IMG/VR virus record: IMGVR_UViG_3300045256_000069
Location: 1-54,458 of that record
DNA: 54,458 nt
Origin: a virus
Lineage: Duplodnaviria; Caudoviricetes
Strand: one strand, 5' to 3'
Part shown: one piece after another, positions 1,176 to 49,750 of the stretch
Layout: every line of letters begins with the position of its first letter
Numbering within the stretch: position 1 is the first letter of the stretch
Notes under the pieces: generated by a model
Seen by the model: only the letters and a program-made list of their open reading frames with translations
The model's database searches: none
What the model was told of the DNA's origin: nothing
Made by a program: the position numbers and the translations under genes

Positions 1176-1203
1176 ACGCGGGGAGTCGAAAGGCTCCTCG
1201 CGT
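1176..1203 (+). terminator. Stem-loop after capsid gene (weak terminator or mRNA-stabilising hairpin)
   Basis: ACGCGGGGAGTC-GAAA-GGCTCCTCGCGT; GNRA loop, poor U tract. Confidence 0.6.
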
Positions 1204-1226
1204 ATTCCACAACAAGGGCCCCAGCC

Positions 1227-1637: not shown

Positions 1638-1647
1638 GGAGTGAGCA

Positions 1648-3010: not shown

Positions 3011-3016
3011 TCAACT

Positions 3017-4537: not shown

Positions 4538-4548
4538 GTCCACCTTCA

Positions 4549-4574
4549 GGGGCGGCGGGCATCACCGCCGTCCC
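4549..4574 (+). terminator. Stem-loop after tail tube gene
   Basis: GGGGCGGCGG-GCATCA-CCGCCGTCCC. Confidence 0.5.
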
Positions 4575-4601
4575 ATCCCCAGTGACAAGAGGTTCTTGCA
4601 C

Positions 4602-5422: not shown

Positions 5423-5801
5423 GATCGACAAGAACGCTAACGAAAAGGTCAAGGACGCAGCAAAAGCGTTCTTGACCACAGTAGTAGAAATGACGCCCGT
5501 CGATACAGGCCAGGCAGTGTCCTCCTGGAAGGTGGGTCTGAACTACAAGCCGCGCGGGACGCGTGTCTTCAGTGAAGGGGCCTCCGGGTCTACGGCTTCG
5601 GCCAACAGGTCAGCGGTGCTGGCGCAGGAACTGCCCAAGATCAGCGCCCGTGTCACGGGTCAAACGATCTCTGTGGTGAACACCGCCCCGTACATTCAGC
5701 GCCTGAATAACGGGACATCCAAGCAGGCACCCGCTGGGTTCATCGATAGCGCCTACATCCAGGCGACATTGGCGATCCGCAAGAGAAAGCTGTTGGTCTG
5801 A
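5373..5801 (+). CDS. Tail completion/neck protein (HK97 gp10-like)
   Basis: TPVDTG.A.S.W and N.APYI.RLN.G.SKQAPAGF motifs. Confidence 0.8.
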   Translation: MGDLRQFSQRMFGLANKIDKNANEKVKDAAKAFLTTVVEMTPVDTGQAVSSWKVGLNYKPRGTRVFSEGASGSTASANRSAVLAQELPKISARVTGQTISVVNTAPYIQRLNNGTSKQAPAGFIDSAYIQATLAIRKRKLLV

Positions 5802-21729: not shown

Positions 21730-22780
21730 TGACCTTGAACTCCCGTTCCTTGATGAAGTCTGCGTCTGCGCCTGTCAGCTCAGCGCGGCAAATCGATGCA
21801 AACTCGCACCACTTGCAGTGCTGGTCAATCGTTTTGTGCTTCTTCTTTCCGATATTGTCTCGCATGTCGATTGCGGCCTCAACGAAGCCTTCGTACACGT
21901 TGTCCACAACGTTGCGAGAGATGGGCGTGAACACGCGGAAGAAATACTCGTTGCGGTTTTCGGCGAGCGACTTCAGTAGCGTCGGGTAGTTCTTCGCCTT
22001 GAAGCCATTCTCCTTGCACCACTGCTTGAACACGCTGGGCAACGAGTCGATCTTGGCCTGTGAGGGCTGACCGTTCTGAAGCAGCTTCGGGATCGCCGGC
22101 GGCTTCGACCGGATGTAATTCCACAGGGTGCCGTCGACCGGCTTCCAGCCGAGGATGTCCATCGCCTTCGCGTACACCGACGATTGCACGTTGAGCCAGC
22201 GGAAGTCTTCGCTCGGGCGCATCTTGAATGTCTTGTGCTCAGCGAGTGCGCGGTTCGTGCGCCACTTCGCCACGCCGTCGATAATGCCGGTAAAGGCTAG
22301 GCCGTCGTCCAGCTCGATCTCGAACGCGTGCTCGGACTTCTTGCCGTTGATCTTGATCATCTGCAGGTCGCCCTTTTGCGACCAGTGCTCGAAGTAGTCG
22401 GTCATGATGTAGTCGATGTCGACCAGAATGTCGCCATACATCTCGACCTCGGCGCTGAACATCTTGCGAGTGTCCATATCGACGTTGAGCGCCTCACGCC
22501 AGTCCTCGCCGTTCGCATCCAGCTCGATGGCCCTGTGAACGATCTTGCCGAACGCGAACGGGCGCTTGGTGCGCTTGGGCTCGAGTCGTTCGACGTGCTT
22601 CAGGTGCGCAGCGTACTTGCAGCGCAGCCACTGCTTCACTTTTGACTGGCCGACTTTGAAGACGCTTGAGCTGCCTTCCACTTCGCCAGAGTTATGCCCT
22701 TTCCCCACGGGCCGATCTTCGCGTCCGCCTCGAGCGGGACGCTCAGCTTGATCTCGAACACGTCGAGCAGTTTTGGCCAT
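21680..22780 (-). CDS. Cas4-like PD-(D/E)XK exonuclease
   Basis: N-terminal C, FG..VH, G.ID, EHKT, Q...Y and C..CEF..IC motifs. Confidence 0.85.
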   Translation of the reverse strand: MAKTARRVRDQAERPARGGREDRPVGKGHNSGEVEGSSSVFKVGQSKVKQWLRCKYAAHLKHVERLEPKRTKRPFAFGKIVHRAIELDANGEDWREALNVDMDTRKMFSAEVEMYGDILVDIDYIMTDYFEHWSQKGDLQMIKINGKKSEHAFEIELDDGLAFTGIIDGVAKWRTNRALAEHKTFKMRPSEDFRWLNVQSSVYAKAMDILGWKPVDGTLWNYIRSKPPAIPKLLQNGQPSQAKIDSLPSVFKQWCKENGFKAKNYPTLLKSLAENRNEYFFRVFTPISRNVVDNVYEGFVEAAIDMRDNIGKKKHKTIDQHCKWCEFASICRAELTGADADFIKEREFKVSESNQHEDEIAAKLDE

Positions 22781-25167
22781 CTCATGATCTCCAGCATTCG
22801 ATTGTGGACACGCTCGAGGTAGTCATTGCGAACCTCGATAAGACACGCATCATGCACAGTTGCGACAGGATAGACAATAGGTTCCGGGAACTCTTCTCTC
22901 AACTGAAGGAGCGACATGAGATTTAATTCGTTCGCGAACGATTGGACTGGTGAGTTGATTGCCTGACGTTCTGCTTCCATGCGCTCCATTGTCTTCTCGC
23001 GCGCCATGGCAGCTGGCAGTCGACGTTTACGACCGGACAGTGATCGCACGAAGCCGTGGCGCCGCGCGTGCTTGCGCTGCTGCTCGTGCCAATCCTCGAA
23101 GCCGGGGTAGAGGTCGAAGAAGTTGATGCGGCTTTCCTGTGCTTCCTCTTCGGTCACGATGACATCGTAGTTGTCCCGCGCGTAGATCATGAACTTCTTC
23201 CACCACATACCGAACAGGTAGCCGAAGTTCACGGCCTTAGCTTTCTTACGCAATTCCTTCCACGTCGGGTCGATCTCGGCACACGCATCGGGGCCAGCCT
23301 TGAACACGATGTCTAGCGCTTCGCCATAGTTCGTGATCTTGCGCTGCGTGAGCGTGCTCGCCGTTTCCTTGATCAGCTTGGGCGATGCACCGCCACGTCC
23401 CATCTCACGTATCATCGTGAGCCAATGCGCATCCTCGCCCTTGTGGAACACACGCAGCATGTTGGTCTCGTTCGCCAGCTCGGCCGCAATGCGTAGCTCG
23501 ATCTGTGACAAGTCGACTTCCAGCAGCGTGTACCCCTCGGGCGCGGTGATCAGCGACCGGATGCGAGGATCGCGTGGCACCTGCTGCAGGTTCGGATGCT
23601 CACAGGACAAACGACCCGTGACTGTGCCATGCAACTTGAACGAGGGATGAATGCGGCTGCCTTCAAGGAATGGCTTCCAGCCTTCGATGAATGACGACAG
23701 TTGCTTCTGCGCCGCACGCCACCTAAGCAACGCCTTGGCGATTGGATGATTGATGCGCTTGAGCACCGACTCGCTGCACGAGTCTGCGCCGCCCTTCGTC
23801 TTCTCGACCGACTTGATCTTGAGCTTGGTGAACAGCAATTCGCCGAGCTGCTTCGGTGAGCCCCAATTGATGTCGCCATAGGGCTTCAGCTCTGCGAGCG
23901 CACCAGCGATCTCATTGCGCAGGTATTCCTCGGCAACCTCGAACTGGTCCACGTTGATGAAGACGCCATGATACTCTATGCGAGTGAACAGCTTGGCGCA
24001 CGGAAACAAGATTTCATCGTAGACCTTGGCGACCTCGGGGTCCTTGTCGAGTTGCTTGCGCAGCTTGAAGTGAAGCTTGCGGGTGTAGAGCAGGTCTTTG
24101 CCCTGATACTCGCAACACTCGGCGAGCGGGCCACGAAACTGCTTGACCTCCTTGGACACGTCATAGTCGGGCGCGTTGAAATGAACCTTGCTTAGGAACT
24201 TGAGGCCGTGCTCGCTGTTCTCGTCAATCATGTAGTGCATGAGCATGGTGTCGCTTTCCCAATGCTCAAGCCAGTTGTAACCGTATCGCACCCACGTCCA
24301 CAGGAAGTCGAACTTGCCGTTCTGCGTCGTGAACCGGACGTCTCCTTCCTGAAGCTTCCAATTGATCTTGCGCATCATGCGCTTGATGTCTTTGAACGTC
24401 CACTTAACCTCGTCGTGGATCAGTGGGATCGTCCAGTGTGCGCGCTTCGTGCCGAAGCCGAGCGACATGATCTCGGCACCAAACTCCCAAGGGTACAGGC
24501 CACTCGTCTCGAGGTCATAGCTGGTCAGTCCGTAGAAGTCATCGAGGAACTCATCGAACGTGTCCCAGTCTGTGACAATACGAAGGTTGAGCTCCTCCTC
24601 CTTGCGGATCGCGCCGTTCTCAACGATGTCGGCGAAGTTTTGCAGGTCATGCTGCAGGATCACTTCCTGCCGCGGATCGTACTCGACGTAGCTTGGCGAG
24701 TATATCGGGAAGAAGATCATCGAGACGTCGCCACTCTCCGCAGTCACCGGTCGACCGCGATGGTTCTTGATGCCCGTCTTGTTCATCACGCCGGCTAGGG
24801 CTGTGCTCCCGACCACCAGGACGAACTTCGGTTGCACCTCGGCGATCTGTGCATCGAGCCATTTGCGGCATGCCTTTATCTGTGCTTTGGTGGGCTTGTC
24901 CGTCGCGCAACTGACGGCATAGCAGAAGAACATCTTGCTGGTGTCGAGGCCGACATCCTCGAGCATCTCGATCAACTTGTCGGGCGGTTTGATCTCGCCA
25001 CGCTTTTGCTCACGCTCACTCGGAGCGTCGAGCACGACCATGATCTTGCGATGCTTGATCGGTGATCCCAACAAACAAGCCCGGTCAACTGTTGCACCGA
25101 GCTTGCAGAGGCGGCAGTTGACGTCCCGCTTGAGCGGAGCGTCCAGGTTAATCTCGAGCTGGCTCAT
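22636..25167 (-). CDS. polA: DNA polymerase family A with N-terminal UDG-like domain and 3'-5' exonuclease
   Basis: DLETSGL (ExoI), NGKFD, TGRLSC..PNLQQ, DLSQIELR, KAVNFGYLFG and VHD motifs; start MSQLEINL is ATGA-coupled to the deaminase. Confidence 0.93.
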   Translation of the reverse strand: MSQLEINLDAPLKRDVNCRLCKLGATVDRACLLGSPIKHRKIMVVLDAPSEREQKRGEIKPPDKLIEMLEDVGLDTSKMFFCYAVSCATDKPTKAQIKACRKWLDAQIAEVQPKFVLVVGSTALAGVMNKTGIKNHRGRPVTAESGDVSMIFFPIYSPSYVEYDPRQEVILQHDLQNFADIVENGAIRKEEELNLRIVTDWDTFDEFLDDFYGLTSYDLETSGLYPWEFGAEIMSLGFGTKRAHWTIPLIHDEVKWTFKDIKRMMRKINWKLQEGDVRFTTQNGKFDFLWTWVRYGYNWLEHWESDTMLMHYMIDENSEHGLKFLSKVHFNAPDYDVSKEVKQFRGPLAECCEYQGKDLLYTRKLHFKLRKQLDKDPEVAKVYDEILFPCAKLFTRIEYHGVFINVDQFEVAEEYLRNEIAGALAELKPYGDINWGSPKQLGELLFTKLKIKSVEKTKGGADSCSESVLKRINHPIAKALLRWRAAQKQLSSFIEGWKPFLEGSRIHPSFKLHGTVTGRLSCEHPNLQQVPRDPRIRSLITAPEGYTLLEVDLSQIELRIAAELANETNMLRVFHKGEDAHWLTMIREMGRGGASPKLIKETASTLTQRKITNYGEALDIVFKAGPDACAEIDPTWKELRKKAKAVNFGYLFGMWWKKFMIYARDNYDVIVTEEEAQESRINFFDLYPGFEDWHEQQRKHARRHGFVRSLSGRKRRLPAAMAREKTMERMEAERQAINSPVQSFANELNLMSLLQLREEFPEPIVYPVATVHDACLIEVRNDYLERVHNRMLEIMRWPKLLDVFEIKLSVPLEADAKIGPWGKGITLAKWKAAQASSKSASQK

Positions 25168-25628
25168 TGATCCACAAACTGACCCGTTTCCCAATTGATC
25201 ATATACCCGCTCGGCGTCAGCCTGAACAGCGAGACTCCAGCCGCCTTGAACCCGACGAGGTGTTGCCAACTGCGGTATTCGTCGCGATACACCACGCGCT
25301 TGATGCCCGACTCGATGACCTTGATCGTGCAGGCCTCACAGGGCGAGTTGGTGACATACAACGTCGTGGCGCCGTCGCACACGAAACCCTTGGCGGCTGC
25401 GCGCCTCAAGGCGTTGTCCTCGGCGTGCACCGAGCGCGTGCATGAGGGTATGCCGCAATCAGGACCTGTGCAGTGCTCATCGCCGCTCGGCGGGCCGTTG
25501 TAGCCGACGCTGACGACATCGTTGGCGTGGACGATGATCGCGCCGACGTTGAGACGCTTGCAGGTCGAGCGACGAGACGCCGCCTCGCACATCATCATCC
25601 ACATCTGGTCTCTAGAGATACGTGTCAC
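25164..25628 (-). CDS. dCMP deaminase
   Basis: RSTC.R..VGA, GYNG, HAE.NA and SPC..C zinc motifs. Confidence 0.92.
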   Translation of the reverse strand: MTRISRDQMWMMMCEAASRRSTCKRLNVGAIIVHANDVVSVGYNGPPSGDEHCTGPDCGIPSCTRSVHAEDNALRRAAAKGFVCDGATTLYVTNSPCEACTIKVIESGIKRVVYRDEYRSWQHLVGFKAAGVSLFRLTPSGYMINWETGQFVDQ

Positions 25629-26485
25629 TTGTCCCCTCCAAACATGGCGATGTAGTCATTGCGGAACATGTGGAACGAAGTGATGTGCATCACCAGGTTG
25701 CCGGCTTTGACCTCGTTCCATTTGGGATCGCGTTCCCTCAAACGAGCCATAACCCACAGAAGGAGACGCCCAGTAAGATAAACGTCATCACGGAAATGTC
25801 GGACGAAGTCGCAGCTTCGAAGGCCATATACGCAGTGCAGAGCACCACCGCGCATAATGAAATGATAGCCCAGAGTGCACGGCAGTCGTCCACCATGATG
25901 GGCCCCAGTGTCTTCGGGAAAGAAGATTGGCATATACGCCTGGCGCGTGAGAGGCTGTTCCTCCAAAAGCTTGATGATGTCATTGAGGTCTCCGTACCTG
26001 TGGTGGATGCCGAGGTTCTCGAACTCGAGCGAATGGATCGTCCCTGGCGCATCAAATTCCTCACGAAACTCCTCTGCAGTTCGTGTCGCCTGGTCAACGA
26101 AGCCAGCACGACGCGGCCAATAGCGCTCCATGTAGTTGTGATTGAACTTGCCCGAGGGATCGCGGAACGTGTCGGCCGACTTGTTGAACGGCCAGTTCTC
26201 CCACTCGACGCCCGGATTGATCGGCTCGCCACAGACTCGCTCCTCGAAATGCTTGTCCGCCCAAGGCAGGTTCGGCCTCACTCGAGCTGCGAAGTCGGCG
26301 AGGTTCTCGGGCACCGGCGCCGACAGACTGTAGTTCAACAGCTCGTGCGTCGCCATCTCCGGACGCTGGCTGATGTCGGTGCCCTGCCACTTCTCGGTGT
26401 GCACCAGCTCCGAATAGTCGCGGAAGTCCCTCGTCGCGTGAAGGATCGCCGCGTTCCACGACCAGTGGTTACTCACTCTCATCAT
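25625..26485 (-). CDS. Thymidylate-synthase-fold enzyme 1 (probably dCMP-modifying)
   Basis: TRQA, catalytic PC, RSCDFVRHFRDD (Asp at +8 from the RSxD Asp) and SFH motifs. Confidence 0.8.
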   Translation of the reverse strand: MMRVSNHWSWNAAILHATRDFRDYSELVHTEKWQGTDISQRPEMATHELLNYSLSAPVPENLADFAARVRPNLPWADKHFEERVCGEPINPGVEWENWPFNKSADTFRDPSGKFNHNYMERYWPRRAGFVDQATRTAEEFREEFDAPGTIHSLEFENLGIHHRYGDLNDIIKLLEEQPLTRQAYMPIFFPEDTGAHHGGRLPCTLGYHFIMRGGALHCVYGLRSCDFVRHFRDDVYLTGRLLLWVMARLRERDPKWNEVKAGNLVMHITSFHMFRNDYIAMFGGDK

Positions 26486-27293
26486 CGTCCGGGTCCTTGT
26501 ACTCGTTGCGATAGCCGGGGTGGTTGTCGGCGATGTACTTCTGCAGCTTCGCCATCAGCTTCGGATTGATAAGCTTCTGCGCCTCGTCATGCACGCGCAT
26601 TGCCTGTGCGAACTTCTGGATGCCGCGCTTGTGTTCGGGGCACAGGTAACGACCGGACCACTTGATGATCCAGTCATAGTAATGCTTGTCCTTCGCCTTC
26701 AGTGCGTCGAGCTCGCCAATCGGGTCATCGAGCCACGGCAGCAGCACCACGAAGTACATCGGGTGGCAGGTGACATTGGCGAAGTGGAAATTGATCTCCT
26801 GCACAGGGCAGCCATCGAAATTAAATCTAGAGAGCAGATCGTCGCGCAGGAACACGAGGTCTGCCGGAAACTTCTTGAACAACTCGGTAGTGCGATAGAA
26901 CACGTCCACTGCTGTGGCACGTTGCTTGCCAGCGAGGTACGTCAGCGACACGGCCTGTAGACATGGCCCCATCACTGACGCACGCTTGCTTTTCTTCTCG
27001 GGATCGTTCTTGATGTAGTGGTTATAGCAATGGAACGACACGGAGCCATACTTGTCCTGCTCCTTGCGACGTTCCCACAGCTGAACCGCCACGGCGAGCG
27101 ACTCCTCGTGCAGGTAGAGCTTGTTCAACGCGCGCCGCTTGTGCGACGTGTAGCCCGCGTGTTCATACTGCAGGTCCGCCTCGATGGCATCGAAGGTGAA
27201 GTGGACGTTGCGAATGATCTTGCGGGCACCGGAGAAGAAGTCTGCCTTGCGTCGAGACAGACGACATGCGTTGTGGAGCCAGCCTTCAAGCAC
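26469..27293 (-). CDS. Divergent thymidylate-synthase-fold protein 2
   Basis: GPCLQAVSL ... FYRTTELFKKFPAD parallels PC...YxRSxD(+8)D; overlaps TS1. Confidence 0.55.
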   Translation of the reverse strand: MLEGWLHNACRLSRRKADFFSGARKIIRNVHFTFDAIEADLQYEHAGYTSHKRRALNKLYLHEESLAVAVQLWERRKEQDKYGSVSFHCYNHYIKNDPEKKSKRASVMGPCLQAVSLTYLAGKQRATAVDVFYRTTELFKKFPADLVFLRDDLLSRFNFDGCPVQEINFHFANVTCHPMYFVVLLPWLDDPIGELDALKAKDKHYYDWIIKWSGRYLCPEHKRGIQKFAQAMRVHDEAQKLINPKLMAKLQKYIADNHPGYRNEYKDPDDDESE

Positions 27294-27495
27294 GATGTTT
27301 CCTCGCCATTTGCAGGATGTCTCCCGCGGTCATCCCTTTACGATATGTGATCAATGCGCACATATCGCACTCTAGTGTGTCGCCGCAAGACTTGTTCTCT
27401 TCCTGACGACACACTGTCAACTGCTCGCCCTCTTCGAGATCATCAAGGGCGCACAGTATCGCCTCGAGCTTGGTCTTAAAGTGCTCGGTGGACAT
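27286..27495 (-). CDS. Small Cys-rich protein (69 aa)
   Basis: MSTEHFK...C...C...C...CDMC; fills the gap between the MazG-like gene and TS2, overlapping both. Confidence 0.55.
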   Translation of the reverse strand: MSTEHFKTKLEAILCALDDLEEGEQLTVCRQEENKSCGDTLECDMCALITYRKGMTAGDILQMARKHRA

Positions 27496-27961
27496 GATCC
27501 TCGACCAGGTCAGTGTGTCGAGGCGGTGTCCAGCCTGCGGGCTTGACGACATCGAACGCGGAGCCGCGCTTGCTCTCCTCAGCCGAGGCAACGCGTATCT
27601 TCTCCATGTTCTTCTTGTGCACTCGGCGCCAGGCCTCGTAGAAGCGATTGTACTCGAAGCCATGGAGATACGCCGTGCCGAGCGCGACATACACCAAGTC
27701 CACGATTGCGTCGAGCTGCTCTTCGAGAAGCTTGGTGATCCGCTCCTCATCGATCTTGCTGGTGGCGCGCTCGTTGCCGAAGATGTCGAGCAGCTCATCC
27801 CTGTGGGTCTTGTACTCGTCCAGCTCTTCCTGCATGAACTTGGTGCGGAAGAAGCCGAGCTCGGGCGGCAATGCACGAGGACGACCGTGGTAGGAAATCT
27901 CGAACTTGTGGTGGAAGTCGGCGATGTCCGCCATGAGATCAGGAGTTGACGTTTGCGTCAT
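27476..27961 (-). CDS. MazG-like/all-alpha NTP pyrophosphohydrolase
   Basis: FH.KF, EE..E, DA.VDL.YV..G, VH..NM.K and KP.GW.PP motifs. Confidence 0.88.
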   Translation of the reverse strand: MTQTSTPDLMADIADFHHKFEISYHGRPRALPPELGFFRTKFMQEELDEYKTHRDELLDIFGNERATSKIDEERITKLLEEQLDAIVDLVYVALGTAYLHGFEYNRFYEAWRRVHKKNMEKIRVASAEESKRGSAFDVVKPAGWTPPRHTDLVEDHVHRAL

Positions 27962-28442
27962 AGCACGCTCTCACAATGAGTTGGACAGTCTCGTCGAACC
28001 GCTCGCCGAGACGATACATGATATTGGCATGGCGAAGCCCCCACGCCTGGTAGGCCGCCAGCAGATCGTTGTACTTTTCCTGCACGCCGGCGAGGTGCTC
28101 AGGATTGTCAGCTTCGGGATTGAACGTGTGACGAGCGAAGCCCTGTGCATCCGGCTGACAGAATACGAAGAGCGGCTTGCTTTCGTAGAAGCGTCGGATC
28201 AGCGGGGCCTTGATGTCGTCGCGCGAGCCGCGGATCATCGCGTAGATCGGCTGACTGACGCAGGGGTGTCGGTCGAAGAGAACGAAGTCGAGCTTCGCGT
28301 AGCGTTCAACTCGTTCGTTCATCTCGCCGGGATATTTGGGAGGACCCTCCGAAGGCTGCACAGGCCAATGAACGCGTGCGCGTATCGCTTCGAGGAGGGT
28401 AGATTTGCCGGCGGCATCGCAACCTTCAATAACAACGTTCAT
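27939..28442 (-). CDS. dNMP (thymidylate-like) kinase
   Basis: VIEG.D.AGKSTL P-loop, FDRH and S..IY motifs; RBS GGAG. Confidence 0.85.
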   Translation of the reverse strand: MNVVIEGCDAAGKSTLLEAIRARVHWPVQPSEGPPKYPGEMNERVERYAKLDFVLFDRHPCVSQPIYAMIRGSRDDIKAPLIRRFYESKPLFVFCQPDAQGFARHTFNPEADNPEHLAGVQEKYNDLLAAYQAWGLRHANIMYRLGERFDETVQLIVRACYDANVNS

Positions 28443-28472
28443 GCGCTGGTTTCTCCGTATCGACAAGACGTG

Positions 28473-33433: not shown

Positions 33434-33936
33434 CGATACCAGGTGGGTGGGCCTCGACGCGTCCAACGCGCGTTCATCCCATCCACCTTCCACTTCGCCG
33501 CCATATACTGTCTATAGGCCGAGTGGACATCGTTGACGTGAGTGAAGTCGAGACCTCGCGCTAAGCTACGCGCACAGTTCACGAACTCCGTACGCTCGAC
33601 CGGGATACGCTTTCCCCTGATCAGCTCGGGCATTCGATCAGCGGCGCACAGGATGATTGTCGAGCTGGCGTGCTCACGATCATATCGCCGGCTGTATTCC
33701 TTCAGCAGCCACTCAGCGTGCAGGATCAACCACGACAGGTTGTCGGATGATGCACGCGCCCAGACAGCGCACGGGTGGTTGACGTGCGTCGGTCGATAGC
33801 CAAGATGCACGCCCATGACCTGTGACCAAGTCGTGCTGATCAGCTGTGCAGTCTCGAGCACCATCTTGACGAGGCGTCGATCATCGAGCGCTTCCGCGCA
33901 CAACTTCGCCGAGGGATGGGTTGCGAAGATGTTCAT
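33370..33936 (-). CDS. Pyrimidine-dimer DNA glycosylase family protein
   Basis: MNIF, VKM.LE.AQL, Y.PTH.NHPC..W and EY..RY...H motifs. Confidence 0.82.
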   Translation of the reverse strand: MNIFATHPSAKLCAEALDDRRLVKMVLETAQLISTTWSQVMGVHLGYRPTHVNHPCAVWARASSDNLSWLILHAEWLLKEYSRRYDREHASSTIILCAADRMPELIRGKRIPVERTEFVNCARSLARGLDFTHVNDVHSAYRQYMAAKWKVDGMNARWTRRGPPTWYRQMVQGLNVVQTEFLGPMNAS

Positions 33937-34460
33937 TGGAACCCCTTGAAGAACGGCCACTTCGCTTCGCGCGTCTGCTTGATGTGATCGGCGATGCTGC
34001 CCCACAATTTGGCTGCGTGCGTGTTGCCGGTCTTGAGCAGTCGACGGCCTGTGCTGCGCGTCCACTCCTCCATCTTCACGTTCTCCATGATCGCGCCCGT
34101 ATCATCGTTCCAGAGCGACGGCATGACGCGATCAGCCACGCCGTCGTAGTTGATGTGAGTGATGTAGGAGCGACGGATCAGACCGCTGCGCAACCAGACC
34201 ATGTAGATCGTCATGCCGCCGATCACGATGCCGTCGGGGTGCTTGTGCGCGATGTCGCGCGGGTCCTCGTGTCGCCGCTGAATGTAGAGCGTGCGATCCG
34301 GAAGCGGAGGCAGCTTCGCGGCGGTCACAGGACCGACGATGAGCGTGCGTCCCTTCGTCATGCCTTGGAACCAACGAAGGTCCTCAGCGTCGTTCCAGGG
34401 CAGCTTGCCATCGAGGCCGAGTTGTCCGTGTTTACCCACTGCTGCTATCAAGTCGACCAC
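33933..34460 (-). CDS. Dihydrofolate reductase
   Basis: LIAAV......G..GKLPW....DL.WF...T, LP.LP.R, VIGG..IY and Y.THI....AD motifs; GTG start with RBS AGGAG. Confidence 0.85.
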   Translation of the reverse strand: MVDLIAAVGKHGQLGLDGKLPWNDAEDLRWFQGMTKGRTLIVGPVTAAKLPPLPDRTLYIQRRHEDPRDIAHKHPDGIVIGGMTIYMVWLRSGLIRRSYITHINYDGVADRVMPSLWNDDTGAIMENVKMEEWTRSTGRRLLKTGNTHAAKLWGSIADHIKQTREAKWPFFKGFQ

Positions 34461-34668
34461 GTCGTCTCTCCTGTTGTTGCTCGTAGAACTTAAGCTTGTC
34501 GAGTCGTGCGCGCAACGCGTTGTTCTCTTCAATTGTCAGCGCGCGTGACCTGATCGCTTCGCTGTAGTTATGCACGAGCGAGCTGAGCAGGTTCACAGGT
34601 ACGCTTATGCTCCGTCGTCCCCGATGTCGTGCAATGGCGTTCTTGAGGAATTGAATTTCTTGTTCCAT
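34432..34668 (-). CDS. Hypothetical protein
   Basis: 78 aa; coiled-coil-like; tiles the operon. Confidence 0.5.
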   Translation of the reverse strand: MEQEIQFLKNAIARHRGRRSISVPVNLLSSLVHNYSEAIRSRALTIEENNALRARLDKLKFYEQQQERRRGRLDSSSG

Positions 34669-45651: not shown

Positions 45652-45821
45652 TTTACGCCTTGTTAACGTTAACGGAGTGTTAAGCTTCACGTCTTGTTAA
45701 CGTTAACTGTTAAGGTTACCGACGGGTTAAGATTTACGTCTCAGTAATGTTACGAGTTAACGTTAATGGAGCGTACAGAAACATGGTTAACGGTGGGTGG
45801 GCCACTTTAACGGTTCATTAA
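45652..45821. promoter_or_regulatory. Dense TTAA/CtrA-box array 2
   Basis: 12 TTAA; perfect boxes at 45669 and 45807 and several one-mismatch boxes. Confidence 0.8.
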
Positions 45822-45868
45822 CCATTGCGGACGGATGCACCTGACATGCGGGTCGGGTGTGATAATGT
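45807..45868 (+). promoter_or_regulatory. Class I CtrA-box promoter
   Basis: Box, 19 bp, CTGACA, 16 bp, TAATGT. Confidence 0.72.
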
Positions 45869-45909
45869 ATCTCTACGCTCAATGACGAGCGCGACACAGG
45901 AAAACGAAC

Positions 45910-46236
45910 ATGACCACGATCAACGCTCTCCTCGCCACCCGCAACGAACTCGCCGCCCGCCTCGACGTGAAGTCTATTGCTTCATGGAAGGCCTCGAAGG
46001 CGAAGCTGCAGGAACAGATCGACGAGTTCACGGCACGCCTGACGCCCACGCGCAAGCGTGACGACCTGTTCCACCTCACTGACCTGTGCCGCGAGCTCGG
46101 CATGAACGCGAAGGTGGCACGCGCGAAGGCACGCCGCCTGTACGCGAAGGACGACACGACGCTGCCGACGCCCATCACGAAGTGGGCATGGGACATGAGC
46201 GATCAGGATCGCGTCCGCGAACACTTCGCGAAGTGA
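45910..46236 (+). CDS. Early protein with C-terminal HTH (paralog family)
   Basis: FHLTDLCRELGMNAKVARAKARR...KWAW; RBS AGGA. Confidence 0.72.
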   Translation: MTTINALLATRNELAARLDVKSIASWKASKAKLQEQIDEFTARLTPTRKRDDLFHLTDLCRELGMNAKVARAKARRLYAKDDTTLPTPITKWAWDMSDQDRVREHFAK

Positions 46237-46245
46237 TTAACGAAG

Positions 46246-46275
46246 GGGGCGGGGAAACCCGCCTCTTTTTCTTTT
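46246..46275 (+). terminator. Rho-independent terminator
   Basis: GGGGCGGG-GAAA-CCCGCCTC followed by TTTTTCTTTT. Confidence 0.88.
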
Positions 46276-46279
46276 GGCA

Positions 46280-46388
46280 TTAACCCGACGGTAACGATAA
46301 GAAGTAACGTTAACGAGCGGTAAAGCTTAACGCTCCATTAACGTTAACGGCCGCTTAACCTTGACCCGCATTGCAGGTGTGGTATGAT
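46280..46388 (+). promoter_or_regulatory. CtrA-box array 3 and class I promoter
   Basis: Boxes at 46327-46341 and 46344-46358; first box, 19 bp, TTGACC, 16 bp, TATGAT. Confidence 0.8.
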
Positions 46389-46421
46389 GTGACATCGAAA
46401 CACGAACACGGGATTTCCGCC

Positions 46422-46907
46422 ATGCACATCGCCGACCACCTGCGCACGCAAATCGCCGCCGCTCTCCGCGCCGATGACGTGACCATCTTCTTCGACGACT
46501 CCCGCGAACGCACCATTGCCATCGTGCGCCGCGCCGATGCCGTTGACGTGTTCCTGCACGACTCGTCGTCCGACGATGACGACTTCGCGTTCTACGCCAT
46601 CGATCCCGACCTGTCCGCTCCTGCGTGCATCCCTGCGTTCTTCGTCGCCATCCCTGATGCCATCGATGACGACGCCGACGCACCGCGCGTCGTGACGCTC
46701 CCTGCCGACTCTGTCGCGCTGATCGTTGACGCCATCGACTCGCACGTCGACTCGCTCGCCGAAAACGCTGCGTCCGACGCTGCCGACCTGCAACCCGAAC
46801 ACGTTCCCGCCATTCAATCGCTCATGAACGCCGCCAACGCGCTGTCGCCGTCGTACTACACGATGACCGCGACCGAACTGCTCGACCTCGATCTCGTTGA
46901 CGATTGA
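46422..46907 (+). CDS. Highly acidic early protein (161 aa)
   Basis: By hand count 29 Asp + 4 Glu versus 7 Arg, with no Lys, Gly or Trp; monocistronic, with its own promoter and terminator. Confidence 0.78.
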   Translation: MHIADHLRTQIAAALRADDVTIFFDDSRERTIAIVRRADAVDVFLHDSSSDDDDFAFYAIDPDLSAPACIPAFFVAIPDAIDDDADAPRVVTLPADSVALIVDAIDSHVDSLAENAASDAADLQPEHVPAIQSLMNAANALSPSYYTMTATELLDLDLVDD

Positions 46908-46918
46908 TTTACCATCGT

Positions 46919-46958
46919 GCGCGCGTCGTGGGATTTTTCCTGTGACGCGCGCTTCTTT
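46919..46958 (+). terminator. Rho-independent terminator
   Basis: GCGCGCGTCGTGGGA-TTTT-TCCTGTGACGCGCGC followed by TTCTTT. Confidence 0.8.
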
Positions 46959-46988
46959 AATGGTTTCTTAACACCTCGATGCTATACT
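46957..46988 (+). promoter_or_regulatory. Class II CtrA-box promoter (box replaces -35)
   Basis: TTAA-TGGTTTC-TTAA, 11 bp ending ATGC, TATACT. Confidence 0.75.
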
Positions 46989-47014
46989 GATCATGTCAAC
47001 AACGAGGTGCTGCC

Positions 47015-47221
47015 ATGCTGATCTTCACCTCCGTCTTCCTCGCCACCCCGATCCTGCCCGCCACGCTCGACGCCGCCTCGCGCGTCTCCGTGTGCAACGA
47101 ACTCGCCCGCCTGTGCCGTGCGCACGCCGACCACGTCGAAGTGACGACAGCGGGCGTTTATATCAACGTGCGCATCGAGGGCGAGCTCGTCGCGTCCTAC
47201 CGCACGTTGAACCAAATCTGA
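47015..47221 (+). CDS. Hypothetical early protein
   Basis: 68 aa; RBS GAGGT. Confidence 0.65.
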   Translation: MLIFTSVFLATPILPATLDAASRVSVCNELARLCRAHADHVEVTTAGVYINVRIEGELVASYRTLNQI

Positions 47222-47228
47222 CGTTGAC

Positions 47229-47256
47229 GGGGGCGCAGGATTTTTCCTGCGTCCTC
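47229..47256 (+). terminator. Hairpin (same GGA-TTTT-TCC loop as 46919)
   Basis: GGGGGCGCAGGA-TTTT-TCCTGCGTCCTC. Confidence 0.6.
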
Positions 47257-47263
47257 GCCTACG

Positions 47264-47295
47264 TTAACACTTTCTTAATGGGTACATGCTACACT
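47264..47295 (+). promoter_or_regulatory. Class II CtrA-box promoter
   Basis: TTAA-CACTTTC-TTAA, 11 bp ending ATGC, TACACT. Confidence 0.75.
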
Positions 47296-47324
47296 GTATG
47301 TATCGAAACGAAGGGAATACGTCG

Positions 47325-47531
47325 ATGACCATCATGAACGTGACCTCCACCCGCCTGACTGTCGCGCCCGTCGATACCAACGCGACCGACTACGTTATCG
47401 ACTACACGTCCTTCGCCGACAACGCCACGCGCCGCGTTGCGCACCTGACCTACAGCGATGCGATGCAGCGTGCCGACGCCCTGCGCAAGCGCGGGTATCG
47501 TGTCAACGTGCGCCGCCTGCACGTCCTGTGA
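47325..47531 (+). CDS. Hypothetical early protein
   Basis: RBS AAGGGA; start MTIMNVT. Confidence 0.65.
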   Translation: MTIMNVTSTRLTVAPVDTNATDYVIDYTSFADNATRRVAHLTYSDAMQRADALRKRGYRVNVRRLHVL

Positions 47532-47562
47532 TCCACACACATACACACGAAGGGAGTAATAC

Positions 47563-47764
47563 AATGTTCACCATTCTCACCGTCATGTCGTGCATCGTCG
47601 CGTGTGTCGTGCTCATCCGTATGATGAACGAAACGACAAGGGAACGCATCAACGTTGACCGTATGCGTTACGTCTCGCTCTCGCCCGACGAGCGGCACAT
47701 CGCGCAGAAATACGATGCAAGGTTGATGCCACGTCGTTCGATCAGGGACTATCGTCACGGATGA
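47563..47764 (+). CDS. Small membrane protein
   Basis: RBS AAGGGAG; N-terminal TM MFTILTVMSCIVACVVLI; start position approximate (+/-1). Confidence 0.55.
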
Positions 47765-47911
47765 TGATGAACGAAGGGTTAAGGGGTACGGATTGCGCGA
47801 ATGCAACCGTATCCCACCCATCAACTTTTAACCATCTGCCTACCCCCACCCATTCCACCCGCATGGCTAAGGACAAAAGACCCATCTTTTGAATTTCCAC
47901 AGAAGAGCTAT

Positions 47912-47964: not shown

Positions 47965-48474
47965 ATGCGTCGAGACACCGCCTATAGACCATTGAAAGAG
48001 CTGGCAAAAGAGCTGGACTCCTTAATTCCGTACGCCCCGTCCAACGAGCAAAAACTCGCAGATTTCCTCGAGTACTTCTCCGAGCACGGAAACGTCGGCG
48101 AAGCGGCACGACACGCGAACATCTCCCGCCGCACGATCTTCCGCGCACGGAAAGACCCCGAGTTCGAGAAGTTGTACCAGGAAGCGCACGAGCTGGGCGT
48201 CTCCGCGATGGAAGATGAGGCTGTGCTGCGCGCCACGAAAGGAACGCTCGAACCAGTGTTCTGGAAAGGCCGCCGGGTTGCGACAATCCGGAAGAAGTCC
48301 GACCTGCTGCTCATGTTCATACTCAAGGCCCGGAAGCCGGAGCTGTACCGCGATAACTTCGAACAGAAAGACCCTGTGAATGTCCACGATGACACGATCC
48401 AGTCTCCACGCGAAGTCATCGCTAGCCGACTTGCTCGCATCTCGGCCCGAACACGAGAGGCAGACAATTCTTGA
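47965..48474 (+). CDS. terS: Terminase small subunit
   Basis: FLE.....GNV.EAA......R.T....R..DPEF, E.EA..RA..G and SD.LL.F.LKA.KPE.YR motifs. Confidence 0.85.
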   Translation: MRRDTAYRPLKELAKELDSLIPYAPSNEQKLADFLEYFSEHGNVGEAARHANISRRTIFRARKDPEFEKLYQEAHELGVSAMEDEAVLRATKGTLEPVFWKGRRVATIRKKSDLLLMFILKARKPELYRDNFEQKDPVNVHDDTIQSPREVIASRLARISARTREADNS

Positions 48475-49750
48475 CGGCTTCTCGGACCTCGAGCTGCAGA
48501 AACTCGAGTACGATTGGAAGTTCTGGGGCCGCACAGACCAGCAAATCCCACCCAAGCCGTGGTCGATCTGGATCGCACTCGCCGGCCGCGGATGGGGCAA
48601 GACCCGCGTCGGCGCAGAGTTCATCAGGGATCGTGCCTGTGGCAAAACGCCTTTCTCCAAAGGCCGTGCGCGACACATCGCCATCGTGGGCGAAACCGCC
48701 GCTGACGCGCGAGACGTCATGATCGAAGGCGTCTCTGGCATCCTCGCCGCACATCCGAAGGACTTCCGTCCGCACTACGAGCCGTCCAAGCGCAAGCTGA
48801 CGTGGCCCAACGGCGCCACAGCCCTCGTGTTCAACGCGACTGAGCCCGACCAACTGCGTGGTCCGCAGTTCGACACCGCCTGGCTCGACGAGATGGCGAA
48901 GTGGCGGTACATCCAAGAGACGTGGGACATGCTGCAGTTCGGTATGCGCCTCGGCGACGATCCGGAGCAGCTTATCACGACGACGCCCAAGCCACTCCCG
49001 CTCATCCGTGAAATTCTCAAGTATCCGTACACTCATGTCACCAGGGGCTCTACCTACGACAACAAGGCCAACCTTGCCAAGAGCTTCTTCGCACAGGTGG
49101 TGACCAAATACGAGGGCACGCGCCTCGGTCGCCAGGAGATCGACGCGGAAATCCTGGACGACGTGCCCAACGCGCTCTTCTCCCGCGCAAACATCGACAA
49201 AAACCGCACGCGTTCACTTCCCGAGCTCGAGCGCATTGTCGTCGGAGTCGACCCGTCTGGCACCGAGGGCGACGAGGAGAAGCGCTCCGACGAAGTGGGC
49301 ATCGTCGTCGCCGGTCGCAGCGAAGACAAGCACGGCTACATCATTGACGACTGCACCATCAACGAACGCCCGGAGAAATGGGCACAGAAGGTCATCGAAG
49401 CCTTCGACCAGTACGAGGCCGACGAGATTGTGGTCGAAACGAACTTCGGTGGAGCAATGGTCGAGGCTGTGCTCCGCAGCGTACCTGGAGGGCAGAGCCT
49501 TCCCATCAAGAAGGTCACGGCATCACGTGGCAAGCACATCCGAGCTCAGCCGGTGGCGAGCTTGTACGAGCAGGACCGTATCCACCATCTGGGCTCCTTG
49601 AGCTCACTGGAGGATCAGCTCTGCCTGTTCACGCCCGACGGGTACATGGGAGGACGATCTCCGGACCGCGCAGACGCAGCGATCTGGGCACTGACCGACC
49701 TGCTCGTCGAGAAGATCAAGCGCACCGCTAGCAAAGAAACGAGGATGTAA
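48380..49750 (+). CDS. terL: Terminase large subunit (GTA-like terminase_6)
   Basis: AGRGWGKT, LRGPQFD.AW.DE, TTTP, GRQE, VGVDP, E.NFGG and SPDR.DA..WA motifs. Confidence 0.93.
   Translation: MSTMTRSSLHAKSSLADLLASRPEHERQTILDGFSDLELQKLEYDWKFWGRTDQQIPPKPWSIWIALAGRGWGKTRVGAEFIRDRACGKTPFSKGRARHIAIVGETAADARDVMIEGVSGILAAHPKDFRPHYEPSKRKLTWPNGATALVFNATEPDQLRGPQFDTAWLDEMAKWRYIQETWDMLQFGMRLGDDPEQLITTTPKPLPLIREILKYPYTHVTRGSTYDNKANLAKSFFAQVVTKYEGTRLGRQEIDAEILDDVPNALFSRANIDKNRTRSLPELERIVVGVDPSGTEGDEEKRSDEVGIVVAGRSEDKHGYIIDDCTINERPEKWAQKVIEAFDQYEADEIVVETNFGGAMVEAVLRSVPGGQSLPIKKVTASRGKHIRAQPVASLYEQDRIHHLGSLSSLEDQLCLFTPDGYMGGRSPDRADAAIWALTDLLVEKIKRTASKETRM

What the first reader, a model, noticed from the sequence alone, without database searches (positions are those of the whole stretch)
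46413..46930. 518-nt stretch with no AG or GG on the sense strand: strand-specific dinucleotide exclusion in an early gene
Seen: reading base by base from just after the Shine-Dalgarno (GG at 46411-12) to the terminator stem (GG at 46930-31), I find no AG and no GG on the + strand, although G is abundant. The template strand therefore has no CC or CT. Codon choice enforces this. Gln is always CAA and Glu is GAA (CAG and GAG dominate elsewhere). Ser is never AGY. Leu is CTC before G-starting codons, and CTG occurs only before non-G. Pro-CCT, Val-GTT and Ser-TCT appear before G. The protein has no Gly, Trp or Lys. CC and CT are common on the + strand, so avoidance of a dsDNA restriction site or PAM does not explain it. 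Inference (a): virion DNA carries a bulky, context-specific cytosine modification at 5'-CY that blocks host RNA polymerase on the template strand, so the first essential gene stays modification-free. This fits the dCMP-type TS pair and the glycosyltransferase. Inference (b): the mRNA escapes a host or phage ribonuclease that cuts at purine-G. I know of no description of this pattern.
Basis: partly seen in the sequence, partly recalled or inferred. Interest (0 to 1): 0.92.

Follow-up and report, generated by a model that had tools for sequence, protein, structure and literature searches.

The report
Phage early genes banning purine-G
A small, very acidic first-expressed phage gene is written with no G after a purine on its message strand, and its protein sequence is bent to allow this; related phages do the same, so something unidentified reads that two-letter step.

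Summary
Confirmed. Window 46413-46930 (+) has 0 AG and 0 GG, against about 61 expected from the genome mean. It is the longest such run in this 54,458-bp phage genome; the longest outside the early cluster is 78. It spans one transcription unit, from the promoter -10 to the terminator. Its only purine-G (RG) steps are the Shine-Dalgarno GGG and a GGG at the terminator tip. Given the protein and the phage's codon usage, P(no RG) = 1.9e-21. The protein is shaped by the ban: it has no Gly or Trp, and Q/E/M are never followed by a G-starting codon.

Six distant homologues (46-68% identity) carry the same protein fingerprint: 2 Gly in 511 residues. Neighbouring genes have RG-free 5' tracts. The nearest relatives, including cultured Brevundimonas phage Strzyga, show the same sense-strand ban in non-homologous early genes. 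Five control phage genomes, two of them on Strzyga's host, and the T7 early region do not.

Tests argue against anti-Shine-Dalgarno avoidance, G-poverty/Rho and RNA unfolding. What remains is an enzyme-like reader of RG on the mRNA (favoured, about 0.35) or of CY on the copied DNA strand (about 0.25). Neither is shown. This scan has noted similar one-strand bans of other dinucleotides in other phages. Three literature searches found no description in print.

The parts
46327..46358 (+). Two tandem TTAA-N7-TTAA boxes (46327-46341 and 46344-46358) just upstream of the -35 element
Evidence: Read directly.
46361..46388 (+). Sigma-70-type promoter: TTGACC, 16 nt, TATGAT, with TG before the -10
   Evidence: 10 of 12 matches. 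AG is absent from 46376 onward.
46410..46413 (+). Shine-Dalgarno GGGA, 8 nt before the ATG. It is one of only two RG-bearing spots in the transcript.
   Evidence: Predicted to be base-paired (probability 0.8-1.0), but G in general is 0.89 paired in this RNA.
46413..46930 (+). RG-free tract: 0 AG and 0 GG in 518 nt
   Evidence: P = 1.9e-21 given the protein.
46422..46907 (+). ORF of 161 aa. It is very acidic (29 D, 4 E, 7 R, 0 K) with no Gly or Trp, and is a fusion of two small acidic domains (about 1-85 and 88-161).
   Evidence: Codon periodicity (G 46% at position 1, 6% at position 2; C 60% at position 3). Homologues P0002-P0008 and the domain split. No significant Pfam, PHROG, PDB or Atlas match.
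46919..46958 (+). Intrinsic terminator: a 15-pair hairpin whose long arms are alternating CG and therefore RG-free. GGG sits at the tip (46930-46932), followed by a T-rich tail.
45900..45971 (+). 72-nt RG-free tract starting right after the SD of the upstream gene (ORF 45910-46236)
   Evidence: P(zero in first 20 codons) = 0.0087. The same tract (73 nt) is present in L001.
47007..47140 (+). 134-nt RG-free tract from the SD through the first 41 codons of ORF 47015-47221
   Evidence: P = 2.2e-5. Whole gene: 8 RG against 18.5 +/- 2.8 expected.
47315..47454 (+). 140-nt RG-free tract from the SD through the first 43 codons of ORF 47325-47531
   Evidence: P = 0.0011. Whole gene: 5 RG against 12.7 +/- 2.8 expected.
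47556..47639 (+). 84-nt RG-free tract at the start of the small membrane-protein ORF that begins at 47564
   Evidence: My codon test for this gene was run one base out of frame and is dropped.
47791..47865 (+). 75-nt RG-free, C-rich non-coding stretch upstream of the small-terminase promoter
   Evidence: Function not examined.

Best explanation
The transcripts of a subset of first-expressed genes in this phage lineage are kept free of 5'-purine-G-3'. The likely reason is a factor in the infected cell that acts on exposed single-stranded RNA at that step. It could be a nuclease, a base-modifying enzyme of the CmdT kind, or an RNA sensor, encoded by either host or phage.

The 161-aa acidic protein is then probably an immediate-early counter-defence or take-over protein whose synthesis must not be interrupted, so its whole message has been recoded and its amino-acid sequence bent to fit. 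Less critical neighbours are purged only over the first 60-130 nt. That is the part of a nascent RNA that stays naked before the first ribosome follows the polymerase.

Shown: the ban, its strand, its dinucleotide precision, its match to the transcription unit, its effect on the proteins, and its conservation. Inferred: that the level is RNA, that the genes are early, what the protein does, and that a reader exists.
For: (1) Dinucleotide precision. Given an RG-free coding of the same protein, 12 of the 14 other dinucleotides lie within about 2 sd of expectation. Only GC (+2.8) and TA (-2.3) exceed this. G at third positions is used more than expected where allowed (33 against 22.9). The constraint is therefore RG itself, as for an active site, not base composition.

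(2) One strand only.

(3) The tract runs from the -10 element to the terminator and includes the 5' UTR, the 3' UTR and both long arms of the hairpin. The exceptions are the SD and the hairpin tip, both predicted to be paired.

(4) Selection reaches the protein. There is no G or W in 161 aa, against 8.5% G and 1.8% W in the reference genes, which gives about 2.5e-8 by my arithmetic. 0 of 10 Q/E/M residues are followed by A/D/E/G/V, although these make up 47% of residues.

(5) Long-term conservation. P0002 (86% identity, 22 substitutions plus a 7-aa insertion) adds no G/W/K and no forced junction. Six distant representatives hold 2 G and 0 W in 511 residues, and 4 forced junctions among 44 purine-ending residues.

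(6) The same ban occurs in non-homologous early genes of relatives. In Strzyga six genes show observed RG of 0, 0, 9, 2, 4 and 10 against expected 18.7, 11.4, 20.6, 15.4, 22.0 and 44.1. In the Desulfofustis phage one gene has 10 against 38.1 (z -6.4), and in MW202777 one has 14 against 25.1 (z -4.3).

(7) A 5' bias within partly purged genes fits shielding by ribosomes.

(8) Precedent: a dinucleotide-specific attack on mRNA exists in phage defence. CmdT acts at GA, as cited in passages of PMC12945103.
Against: No RG-specific RNase, RNA modifier or sensor is known to me or was found. DarT1, the guanine ADP-ribosyltransferase, has no consensus motif (passages of PMC11543638).

The trait follows the phage lineage and not the host. 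Two unrelated phages of Strzyga's own host strain lack it (Babayka, whole genome; MaInes, 50,000 of 68,997 bases). A constitutive host factor is therefore not enough.

Genes behind the same promoter type are not purged (45149: 20 against 26.1; 45342: 36 against 40.0; Strzyga 23533: 38 against 49.7).

A 451-nt non-coding stretch downstream of a strong terminator in Strzyga is also RG-poor (AG 1 against 15.6, GG 5 against 14.9). That fits an RNA-level cause only if the stretch is transcribed.

Message, non-template DNA strand and complement of the template strand share one sequence, so no analysis here separates RNA from DNA. No expression data exist.
Confidence: 0.35

Rival explanations
1. DNA-level reading. 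Virion DNA of this lineage carries a context-specific mark, or suffers a context-specific lesion (a glycosylase, nickase or ADP-ribosylation defence), at 5'-CY-3'. On the template strand this hinders host RNA polymerase. Genes that must be read from incoming DNA therefore keep their template strand free of CC and CT.
For: The trait is lineage-specific and crosses predicted hosts. It is absent from unrelated phages of the same host.

All phages with the ban share a replication/nucleotide module with the window: a dCMP deaminase, two thymidylate-synthase-like genes, a MazG-like pyrophosphatase and a thymidylate-kinase-like gene. That gene set resembles those that make hydroxymethyl-pyrimidine DNA; the resemblance is recalled, not tested.

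Dinucleotide-context hypermodification of phage DNA is in print: TG/TC in M6, ViI and phiW-14 (passages of PMC6449724), and 'sequence-specific contexts' (passages of PMC8989533). Bulky major-groove groups block bacterial RNA polymerases in vitro (abstract of PMC4838386).

The RG-poor non-coding stretch in Strzyga is easier to explain on DNA. Earlier notes of this scan tie similar bans to DNA-modifying phages; these notes are unchecked leads.
Against: The shared module is how the relatives were found, so the link is partly circular. MW202455 has the module (TS-like 49% and 31% identity) but its longest RG-free run is 66.

No context-specific enzyme is shared. The glycosyltransferase and FkbM methyltransferase occur in the window only (0 of 3 relatives). 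No 5-hmU DNA kinase, aGPT-pyrophosphorylase or DpdA came out of the three Pfam searches of other window genes (30 queries: 29 window genes and one Desulfofustis-phage gene) or the PHROG search (10 proteins).

The replication genes are not purged. The in-vitro block in PMC4838386 was judged to act at initiation, whereas here the promoter is not purged and the transcribed body is. No modification data exist.
Confidence: 0.25
2. Translation reading. The messages avoid any sequence that could pair with the anti-Shine-Dalgarno tail of 16S rRNA. The true SD is then the only ribosome landing site and elongation is never slowed.
For: AG and GG are the dinucleotides of the SD core. The SD is the only RG-bearing element near each start. 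The RG-free tracts begin right after each SD and are 5'-biased. One Strzyga gene has no SD at all and no RG.
Against: Resampling the same protein gives 16.3 +/- 2.9 RG steps (minimum 7 in 2000) that lie in none of AGG, GGA, GAG, GGT or GGG and so have no anti-SD complementarity. Observed: 0. Gly could be coded Y-GGY without any SD-like triplet, yet it is absent. GA, also part of the SD, is at expectation (41 against 41.9). Late genes, unrelated phages on the same host and T7 ocr (21 AG and 14 GG in 354 nt) show no such purge.
Confidence: 0.05
3. Physical or termination readings. The purge makes the RNA unstructured, or C-rich/G-poor to engage or avoid Rho, or unable to form R-loops. Alternatively it removes primase start sites (a pppRG primer needs CY on the template) from one strand.
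For: The sense strand is C-rich (C 204, G 125) and the YC density is above the genome mean. Predicted folding is slightly weaker than for synonymous versions (-159 against -178 +/- 9 kcal/mol, z +2.1). The 5' bias would suit events on nascent RNA. The lineage encodes its own primase-helicase.
Against: G is not avoided where it is allowed. The RNA is still predicted to be heavily folded. C-richness would attract Rho, not evade it. By nearest-neighbour values that I recall, AC and GC favour RNA:DNA hybrids about as much as AG, yet they are abundant. I see no benefit of a primer-free template strand. None of these readings predicts an absolute dinucleotide rule.
Confidence: 0.08

Closest known systems
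One-strand depletion of asymmetric restriction sites in phages (T7's 36 EcoP15I sites in one orientation; MANTIS sites). Source: passages of bioRxiv 10.64898/2026.09.23.753747.
   Same: A phage escapes by removing a recognised word from one strand only.
   Different: Those words are 5-6 bp, the bias is genome-wide, and it works through site orientation on double-stranded DNA. Here the word is a dinucleotide class, the purge is absolute, it is confined to certain transcription units, and it changes the proteins.
CmdTAC defence: CmdT ADP-ribosylates adenine in GA dinucleotides of mRNA (as cited in passages of PMC12945103; the original paper was not read).
   Same: It shows that a dinucleotide-specific attack on single-stranded mRNA exists in anti-phage immunity.
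   Different: The target there is GA, which is abundant here (41 in 518 nt). No CmdT-like gene or activity was examined. The host is unknown for the window.
Dinucleotide-context thymidine hypermodification from 5-hmdU (Pseudomonas M6, Salmonella ViI, Delftia phiW-14; TG/TC context). Source: passages of PMC6449724 and PMC8989533.
   Same: A phage-made DNA mark placed by dinucleotide context. It relies on a thymidylate-synthase-like hydroxymethylase, a kinase, a pyrophosphatase and a dCMP deaminase, as found in this lineage.
   Different: The context there is T followed by G or C and applies to both strands. Those papers, as far as I read them, describe no purged early genes. The hallmark DNA kinase and aGPT-pyrophosphorylase were not found here, and no modification is shown.
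Ocr (T7 gene 0.3) and other acidic DNA-mimic anti-restriction proteins
   Same: A small, strongly acidic protein from a monocistronic unit with a strong host-type promoter, probably among the first made.
   Different: No sequence or fold match. The AlphaFold model is unusable (pLDDT 39). T7 ocr has 21 AG and 14 GG in 354 nt.
ACA-less messages that escape MazF, CpG depletion of vertebrate RNA viruses against ZAP, and chlorovirus Nt.CviQII/M.CviQII acting at (R)AG. None was read here.
   Same: Escape from a short-word reader by recoding, and the existence of enzymes with 2-3-nt specificity that includes AG.
   Different: Other words, other hosts, and mostly statistical depletion, not an absolute, protein-bending, transcript-limited ban.

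Membership tests
Restriction/defence site avoidance (Type II palindromes; Type III/MANTIS one-strand bias) | The avoided word is a defined recognition site of 4 bp or more, avoided over the genome | tested here: not met
   The avoided set is two dinucleotides. Elsewhere in the genome RG is at 0.117-0.125 per nt on both strands.
Restriction/defence site avoidance (Type II palindromes; Type III/MANTIS one-strand bias) | A cognate enzyme with that specificity is known in the host | not testable with these tools
   The host of the window is unknown and no enzyme with RG or CY specificity was found in the papers I read.
mRNA escape from a sequence-specific RNA-targeting toxin (MazF-type or CmdT-type) | The target word is absent from the whole message, UTRs included, but not from the opposite strand | tested here: met
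mRNA escape from a sequence-specific RNA-targeting toxin (MazF-type or CmdT-type) | A toxin with matching specificity exists | tested here: inconclusive
   DarT1 has no motif and CmdT targets GA. Nothing with RG specificity was found. The PADLOC library was not searched because no host genome is at hand.
Context-specific DNA hypermodification (5-hmdU/5-hmdC pathways) | Pyrimidine hydroxymethylase with a supporting nucleotide module | tested here: inconclusive
   A TS-like gene (Pfam E = 1.9e-4, below the cut-off; PHROG thymidylate synthase 3e-25), a second TS-like gene without a family match, and dCMP deaminase, MazG-like, tmpK-like and DHFR genes. Substrate not determinable.
Context-specific DNA hypermodification (5-hmdU/5-hmdC pathways) | A post-replicative, context-specific modifying enzyme shared by the phages that show the ban | tested here: not met
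   The glycosyltransferase and FkbM methyltransferase are present in the window only, 0 of 3 relatives. No 5-HMUDK, aGPT-Pplase or DpdA hits.
Context-specific DNA hypermodification (5-hmdU/5-hmdC pathways) | A modified base is present in virion DNA at the avoided context | not testable with these tools
   Only assembled contigs are available; there are no raw signal or mass-spectrometry data.
Ocr/ArdA-type DNA mimics | Strong net negative charge in a small early protein | tested here: met
   33 acidic residues against 7 Arg and 0 Lys in 161 aa.
Ocr/ArdA-type DNA mimics | Sequence or fold similarity to a known mimic | tested here: not met
   No PHROG match and no Pfam match above the curated cut-off. 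No tblastn hit in the phage collection. In the PDB search the best hit was E = 0.25, to an unrelated GTPase. The model was too poor to search.
Avoidance of internal Shine-Dalgarno-like sequences | Depletion scales with anti-SD complementarity, and words without complementarity are tolerated | tested here: not met
   16.3 +/- 2.9 non-SD-like RG steps expected, 0 seen.
Rho utilisation / Rho avoidance composition | General G-poverty or YC avoidance on the message | tested here: not met
   G at third positions is 33 against 22.9 expected under the ban. CC plus TC is 102 in 518 nt.

The most novel reading that the evidence does not exclude
An undescribed enzyme or sensor with purine-G (or, on the other strand, C-pyrimidine) specificity acts on single-stranded nucleic acid early in infection by this phage lineage. 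The phages answer with 'stealth' genes whose messages and proteins are rewritten to lack the word entirely. Together with the other one-strand dinucleotide bans noted by this scan, this would point to a widespread, unrecognised layer of phage-host conflict, or of phage self-marking, that operates at dinucleotide resolution. The banned word would report the specificity of each reader.
Probability: 0.55. Interest if true: 0.88.

Novelty: new variant of a known kind. Interest (0 to 1): 0.8.

Why it matters
If a reader of RG (or CY) exists, the purged genes mark which phage products must be made first and unharmed. They are therefore candidate counter-defence proteins. The banned word also gives the specificity of an enzyme nobody has described, of a kind that has been useful as a tool.

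The case is directly testable because a cultured phage-host pair, Brevundimonas phage Strzyga on B. pondensis LVF1, shows the same ban in six genes. It also shows that nucleotide-level selection can remove whole amino acids (Gly, Trp) from a protein family. That matters for reading compositional oddities in orphan phage proteins.

Tried and rejected
Anti-SD avoidance is rejected. General G-poverty or a Rho-type composition is rejected. An unstructured message gets only weak support: z = +2.1 and an MFE still at -159 kcal/mol.

UV dipyrimidine avoidance on the template strand is rejected: AA (12) and GA (41) on the sense strand mean that TT and TC remain on the template. A PAM or double-strand site is rejected because CC and CT are common on the same strand.

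A virion RNase was considered because the Desulfofustis phage record labels a tail-module gene 'Rnase'. Pfam found nothing in it or in the window's tail genes.

Strzyga's acidic early protein is not homologous to the target (BLASTP E > 1). The AlphaFold2 single-sequence model had pLDDT 39 and was not used for fold search. The ESM Atlas gave no usable hit, the PDB sequence search gave none, and Rfam gave 0 matches in the window.

blastn and tblastn of the region against the phage collection found no match. Scans of viral contigs with the target and with the small terminase found no relatives.

No RNA holder was listed among 20 sequencing runs, so nothing can be said about expression. Laying contigs of runs X5, X7, X10 and X13 showed relatives. 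The table of differing letters was cut (122 rows not shown), so I could not see the variants inside 46413-46930. The DNA of P0002-P0008 was not obtained, and only their protein fingerprint was tested.

The 540-nt AA-free run at 20047-20586 is ordinary: it is the T-poor D/E/K-rich low-complexity middle of the DUF669 gene. RG bases being base-paired is not special, because G in general is 0.77-0.89 paired in these C-rich RNAs.

The gene set (greedy longest ORFs) contained wrong-strand ORFs and was replaced by the sets used. The row for the start at '47565' was out of frame and is dropped. Supplementary files of the papers were not opened; those of PMC6449724 and PMC8989533 may hold context data that bear on the DNA-level rival.
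Full report
WHAT THE WINDOW IS. The window is a complete 54,458-bp contig, the whole 'genome' on hand. It is a tailed phage with small and large terminase at 47965-49750 and GTA-like tail genes: DUF2460, BR0599 and a lysozyme. Its replication and nucleotide module comprises SNF2 helicase, DUF669, AAA_24, a PD-(D/E)XK nuclease, PolA, dCMP deaminase, two thymidylate-synthase-like genes, a MazG-like pyrophosphatase, a thymidylate-kinase-like gene, a RepB-primase/DnaB-like helicase, DHFR, an FkbM methyltransferase and a glycosyltransferase. I found no phage RNA polymerase among the genes searched. The nearest records share at most 51-53% protein identity in terminase and PolA: Caudoviricetes sp. 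MW202777, Desulfofustis phage OP947159, and Brevundimonas phages Strzyga and Polewnik.

THE OBSERVATION. 46413-46930 (+) holds 0 AG and 0 GG in 518 nt, although G is 24% of bases. CC (53) and CT (34) are common on the same strand. The run is the longest RG-free run in the genome on either strand. The next five all lie in the adjacent small genes. Outside 45800-47900 the longest of 13,082 gaps is 78 nt. Among 52 predicted genes, the three lowest sense-strand RG densities are this gene (0), 47325-47531 (0.024) and 47015-47221 (0.039). The fourth is 0.093 and the median is 0.128.

With the amino-acid sequence fixed and codons drawn from the usage of ten long genes, 32.3 +/- 4.0 RG are expected. 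The exact probability of none is 1.9e-21.

ANATOMY. The tract is one transcription unit. It comprises:
- two TTAA-N7-TTAA boxes (46327-46358, read);
- a TTGACC-16-TATGAT promoter (46361-46388);
- a short leader with GGGA as the Shine-Dalgarno (46410-46413);
- an ORF of 161 codons (46422-46907);
- a 15-pair terminator (46919-46952) with a T-rich tail.

RG is absent from the -10 element to the terminator tail, except for the SD GGG and a GGG at the hairpin tip. The long arms of the hairpin are alternating CG and so avoid RG on both arms. The ORF has normal coding periodicity.

THE PROTEIN IS BENT TO THE RULE. The protein has 29 Asp, 4 Glu, 7 Arg and no Lys, Gly or Trp. The reference genes have 8.5% Gly and 1.8% Trp. 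Residues whose codons must end in a purine (Q, E, M; 10 in all) are never followed by A, D, E, G or V, although these make up 47% of the protein. By my arithmetic 0.53^10 is about 0.002. Asp, whose codons can end in a pyrimidine, is preferred over Glu 29 to 4.

CONSERVATION OF THE GENE. The only close homologue, P0002 (86% identity), differs by 22 substitutions and a 7-residue insertion. None of these brings G, W, K or a forced RG junction. A metagenome contig (L001) carries the upstream gene, the same promoter architecture and the first 85 codons. It has 8 base differences in 255 nt, and all 266 nt from the SD onward are RG-free.

A full HMMER search of 1.84 billion representatives found six further proteins at 46-68% identity. 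Together they have 2 Gly and 0 Trp in 511 residues; about 43 Gly would be expected at 8.5%. Only 4 of 44 purine-ending residues are followed by a G-starting residue. Three of the six are fully compatible with an RG-free coding.

The alignment shows that the target is a fusion of two small acidic domains that occur as separate proteins elsewhere. No family, fold or structure match was obtained. 'DNA mimic/counter-defence protein' is therefore an inference from charge and position.

THE NEIGHBOURS. The RG-free tracts at 45900-45971, 47007-47140, 47315-47454 and 47556-47639 each begin right after an SD and cover the first 20-43 codons. RG is normal further downstream. Given the proteins, the probabilities of these RG-free starts are 0.0087, 2.2e-5 and 0.0011 for the first three. 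The fourth was mis-framed in my script and is not counted. Two genes behind the same kind of promoter (45149, 45342) are not purged (20 against 26.1; 36 against 40.0).

THE LINEAGE. In cultured Brevundimonas phage Strzyga, five sigma-70-type promoters on the minus strand head a row of small genes. The first unit is only mildly depleted (38 RG against 49.7 expected). The next six ORFs have 0, 0, 9, 2, 4 and 10 RG against 18.7, 11.4, 20.6, 15.4, 22.0 and 44.1 expected. RG-free runs there reach 376, 300, 277 and 271 nt. Over 20815-22800, AG is 7 against 95.1 expected and GG is 32 against 103.3. Lys is coded AAA. The residual RG steps are mostly Gly codons, SDs and promoter spacers, and one gene has neither an SD nor any RG. 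These genes are not homologous to the window's early genes.

In the Desulfofustis phage one early gene has 10 RG against 38.1 +/- 4.4. In MW202777 its counterpart has 14 against 25.1 +/- 2.6, with RG-free non-coding runs of 107-133 nt nearby.

CONTROLS. Longest RG-free run on either strand:
- MW202455, which has the same nucleotide module: 66;
- Fanboy, whole genome: 99;
- MaInes, first 50,000 of 68,997 bases, same host strain as Strzyga: 78;
- Babayka, whole genome, same host strain: 68;
- Roseobacter phage CRP-6: 89;
- T7 bases 1-6000: 64, and its acidic first gene ocr holds 21 AG and 14 GG in 354 nt.

The ban is therefore a property of a phage lineage. It is not a general property of early genes or of that host.

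WHAT KIND OF CONSTRAINT. I sampled codings of the same proteins conditioned on being RG-free. Of the 14 other dinucleotides, 12 then fall within about 2 sd of expectation; the exceptions are GC (+2.8) and TA (-2.3). G in third positions is used more than expected (33 against 22.9). The rule is RG itself, not G-poverty or C-richness.

Of the RG steps expected in resampled versions, 16.3 +/- 2.9 (minimum 7 in 2000) lie in no SD-like triplet, yet none is present. Together with the loss of Gly and of AGY Ser codons, this rejects avoidance of anti-SD pairing. Predicted folding is only slightly weaker than for synonymous versions (z +2.1). UV dipyrimidines, PAMs and double-strand sites do not fit the strand and dinucleotide pattern.

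An absolute, strand-specific dinucleotide rule that overrides protein sequence looks like escape from something with enzyme-like specificity for single-stranded nucleic acid.

RNA OR DNA? The message, the non-template strand and the complement of the template strand have the same sequence, so no analysis here can separate the levels.

For RNA: the tract coincides with the transcript, UTRs included. The 5' bias in partly purged genes suits a threat to nascent RNA that is still ribosome-free. A dinucleotide-specific mRNA attack is known in phage defence (CmdT at GA, as cited in PMC12945103).

For DNA: the trait follows the phage lineage and not the host. Dinucleotide-context hypermodification of phage DNA is in print (TG/TC; PMC6449724; PMC8989533). 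Bulky groove groups can block bacterial RNA polymerase, although probably at initiation (PMC4838386 abstract). A non-coding stretch after a strong terminator in Strzyga is also RG-poor.

Against DNA: no context-specific enzyme is shared, MW202455 has the module without the ban, and the replication genes are not purged.

I put the RNA reading at 0.35, the template-DNA reading at 0.25, translation at 0.05 and physical or termination readings at 0.08. The rest is unassigned.

WHAT IS KNOWN. Three full-text searches for such a pattern found nothing pertinent; I judged them from listings and abstracts. The paper on the Brevundimonas phages does not mention the pattern in the passages I read. The nearest things in print are the one-strand depletion of 5-6-bp Type III/MANTIS sites and dinucleotide-context DNA marks.

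Earlier notes of this scan record the same tracts in this genome, and analogous one-strand bans of other dinucleotides (TC, TG/CA, CT, YC, GR) in early genes of unrelated phages. I used them as leads only. They suggest that this case belongs to a wider class, with RG as a further banned word.

VERDICT. The cause is unidentified.

Noticed in passing
window 46409-46918 and 46956-47264: In contigs of related phages from other samples the units behave as cassettes. One contig (run X10) joins 46409 to 46918, that is, from the SD to the terminator, so the acidic gene is absent or replaced ('between: not known'). Contigs in X10 and X13 join 46956 to 47264 and so skip the next unit, which lies between two TTAA-box promoters.
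   Followed up: partly
window 46410-46420, 46930-46942 and about 47238-47251: The two RG-bearing spots of the transcript share one motif: GGGATTT(TT)CC at the SD and at the terminator tip. The next terminator has a similar tip, CAGGATTTTTCCTG. This could be a common protein-binding hairpin or shared ancestry of the terminators.
   Followed up: no
window 47004-47009 and 47026-47031: The SD of the next gene (GAGGTG) is perfectly complementary to CACCTC lying 17 nt downstream, across the start codon. It is predicted to be paired with it (probability 0.95-0.99). SDs of these C-rich messages are generally predicted to be sequestered.
   Followed up: partly
window 46422-46907; proteins P0003-P0008: The acidic protein is a fusion of two domains that occur as separate ~80-aa proteins elsewhere. 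The N domain has a conserved FFDxSRERTIAVV...SDDDD core; the C domain is matched by P0004 alone.
   Followed up: partly
window 25164-28466 and 33933-34532 (minus strand): dCMP deaminase, two thymidylate-synthase-like genes, a MazG-like pyrophosphatase, a thymidylate-kinase-like gene and DHFR. From recall, this gene set resembles the pathways that make hydroxymethyl-pyrimidine DNA. It is shared at 39-57% identity with the three relatives that show the ban, and at 22-49% with MW202455, which does not.
   Followed up: partly
L002 (Strzyga) 20350-20800, minus strand: A non-coding, RG-poor stretch (AG 1 against 15.6 expected, GG 5 against 14.9) lies downstream of the strong terminator of the early cluster. 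It contains direct repeats that look like -35/-10 pairs and runs antisense into STRZYGA_00270. It may be an antisense or non-coding RNA unit, or an origin.
   Followed up: partly
window 45910-46236; L002 20815-21228; L003 585-776; L004 1269-1640: A small early protein with a Lys/Ala-rich front (in some members) and a C-terminal helix-hairpin-like domain ending in W-x-W/F recurs in all four genomes. It is RG-depleted in each (z about -2, -9, -4.3 and -6.4). The records label it sigma factor or AlpA-like, and Pfam/PHROG gave nothing for the window copy.
   Followed up: partly
window 20047-20586: A 540-nt AA-free run on the plus strand (TT-free on the gene's sense strand) is ordinary. It is the T-poor, D/E/K-rich low-complexity middle of the DUF669 gene. 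Matching runs occur at comparable positions in the three relatives, overlapping the tblastn match of this gene in Strzyga and MW202777; Desulfo gave no match.
   Followed up: yes
L004 (Desulfofustis phage) about 900-1130: Tandem copies of a ~21-nt unit containing TTAATCGGGTGGAGAAA lie just upstream of the early promoter. They take the place held by the TTAA-box arrays in the window and in Strzyga.
   Followed up: no
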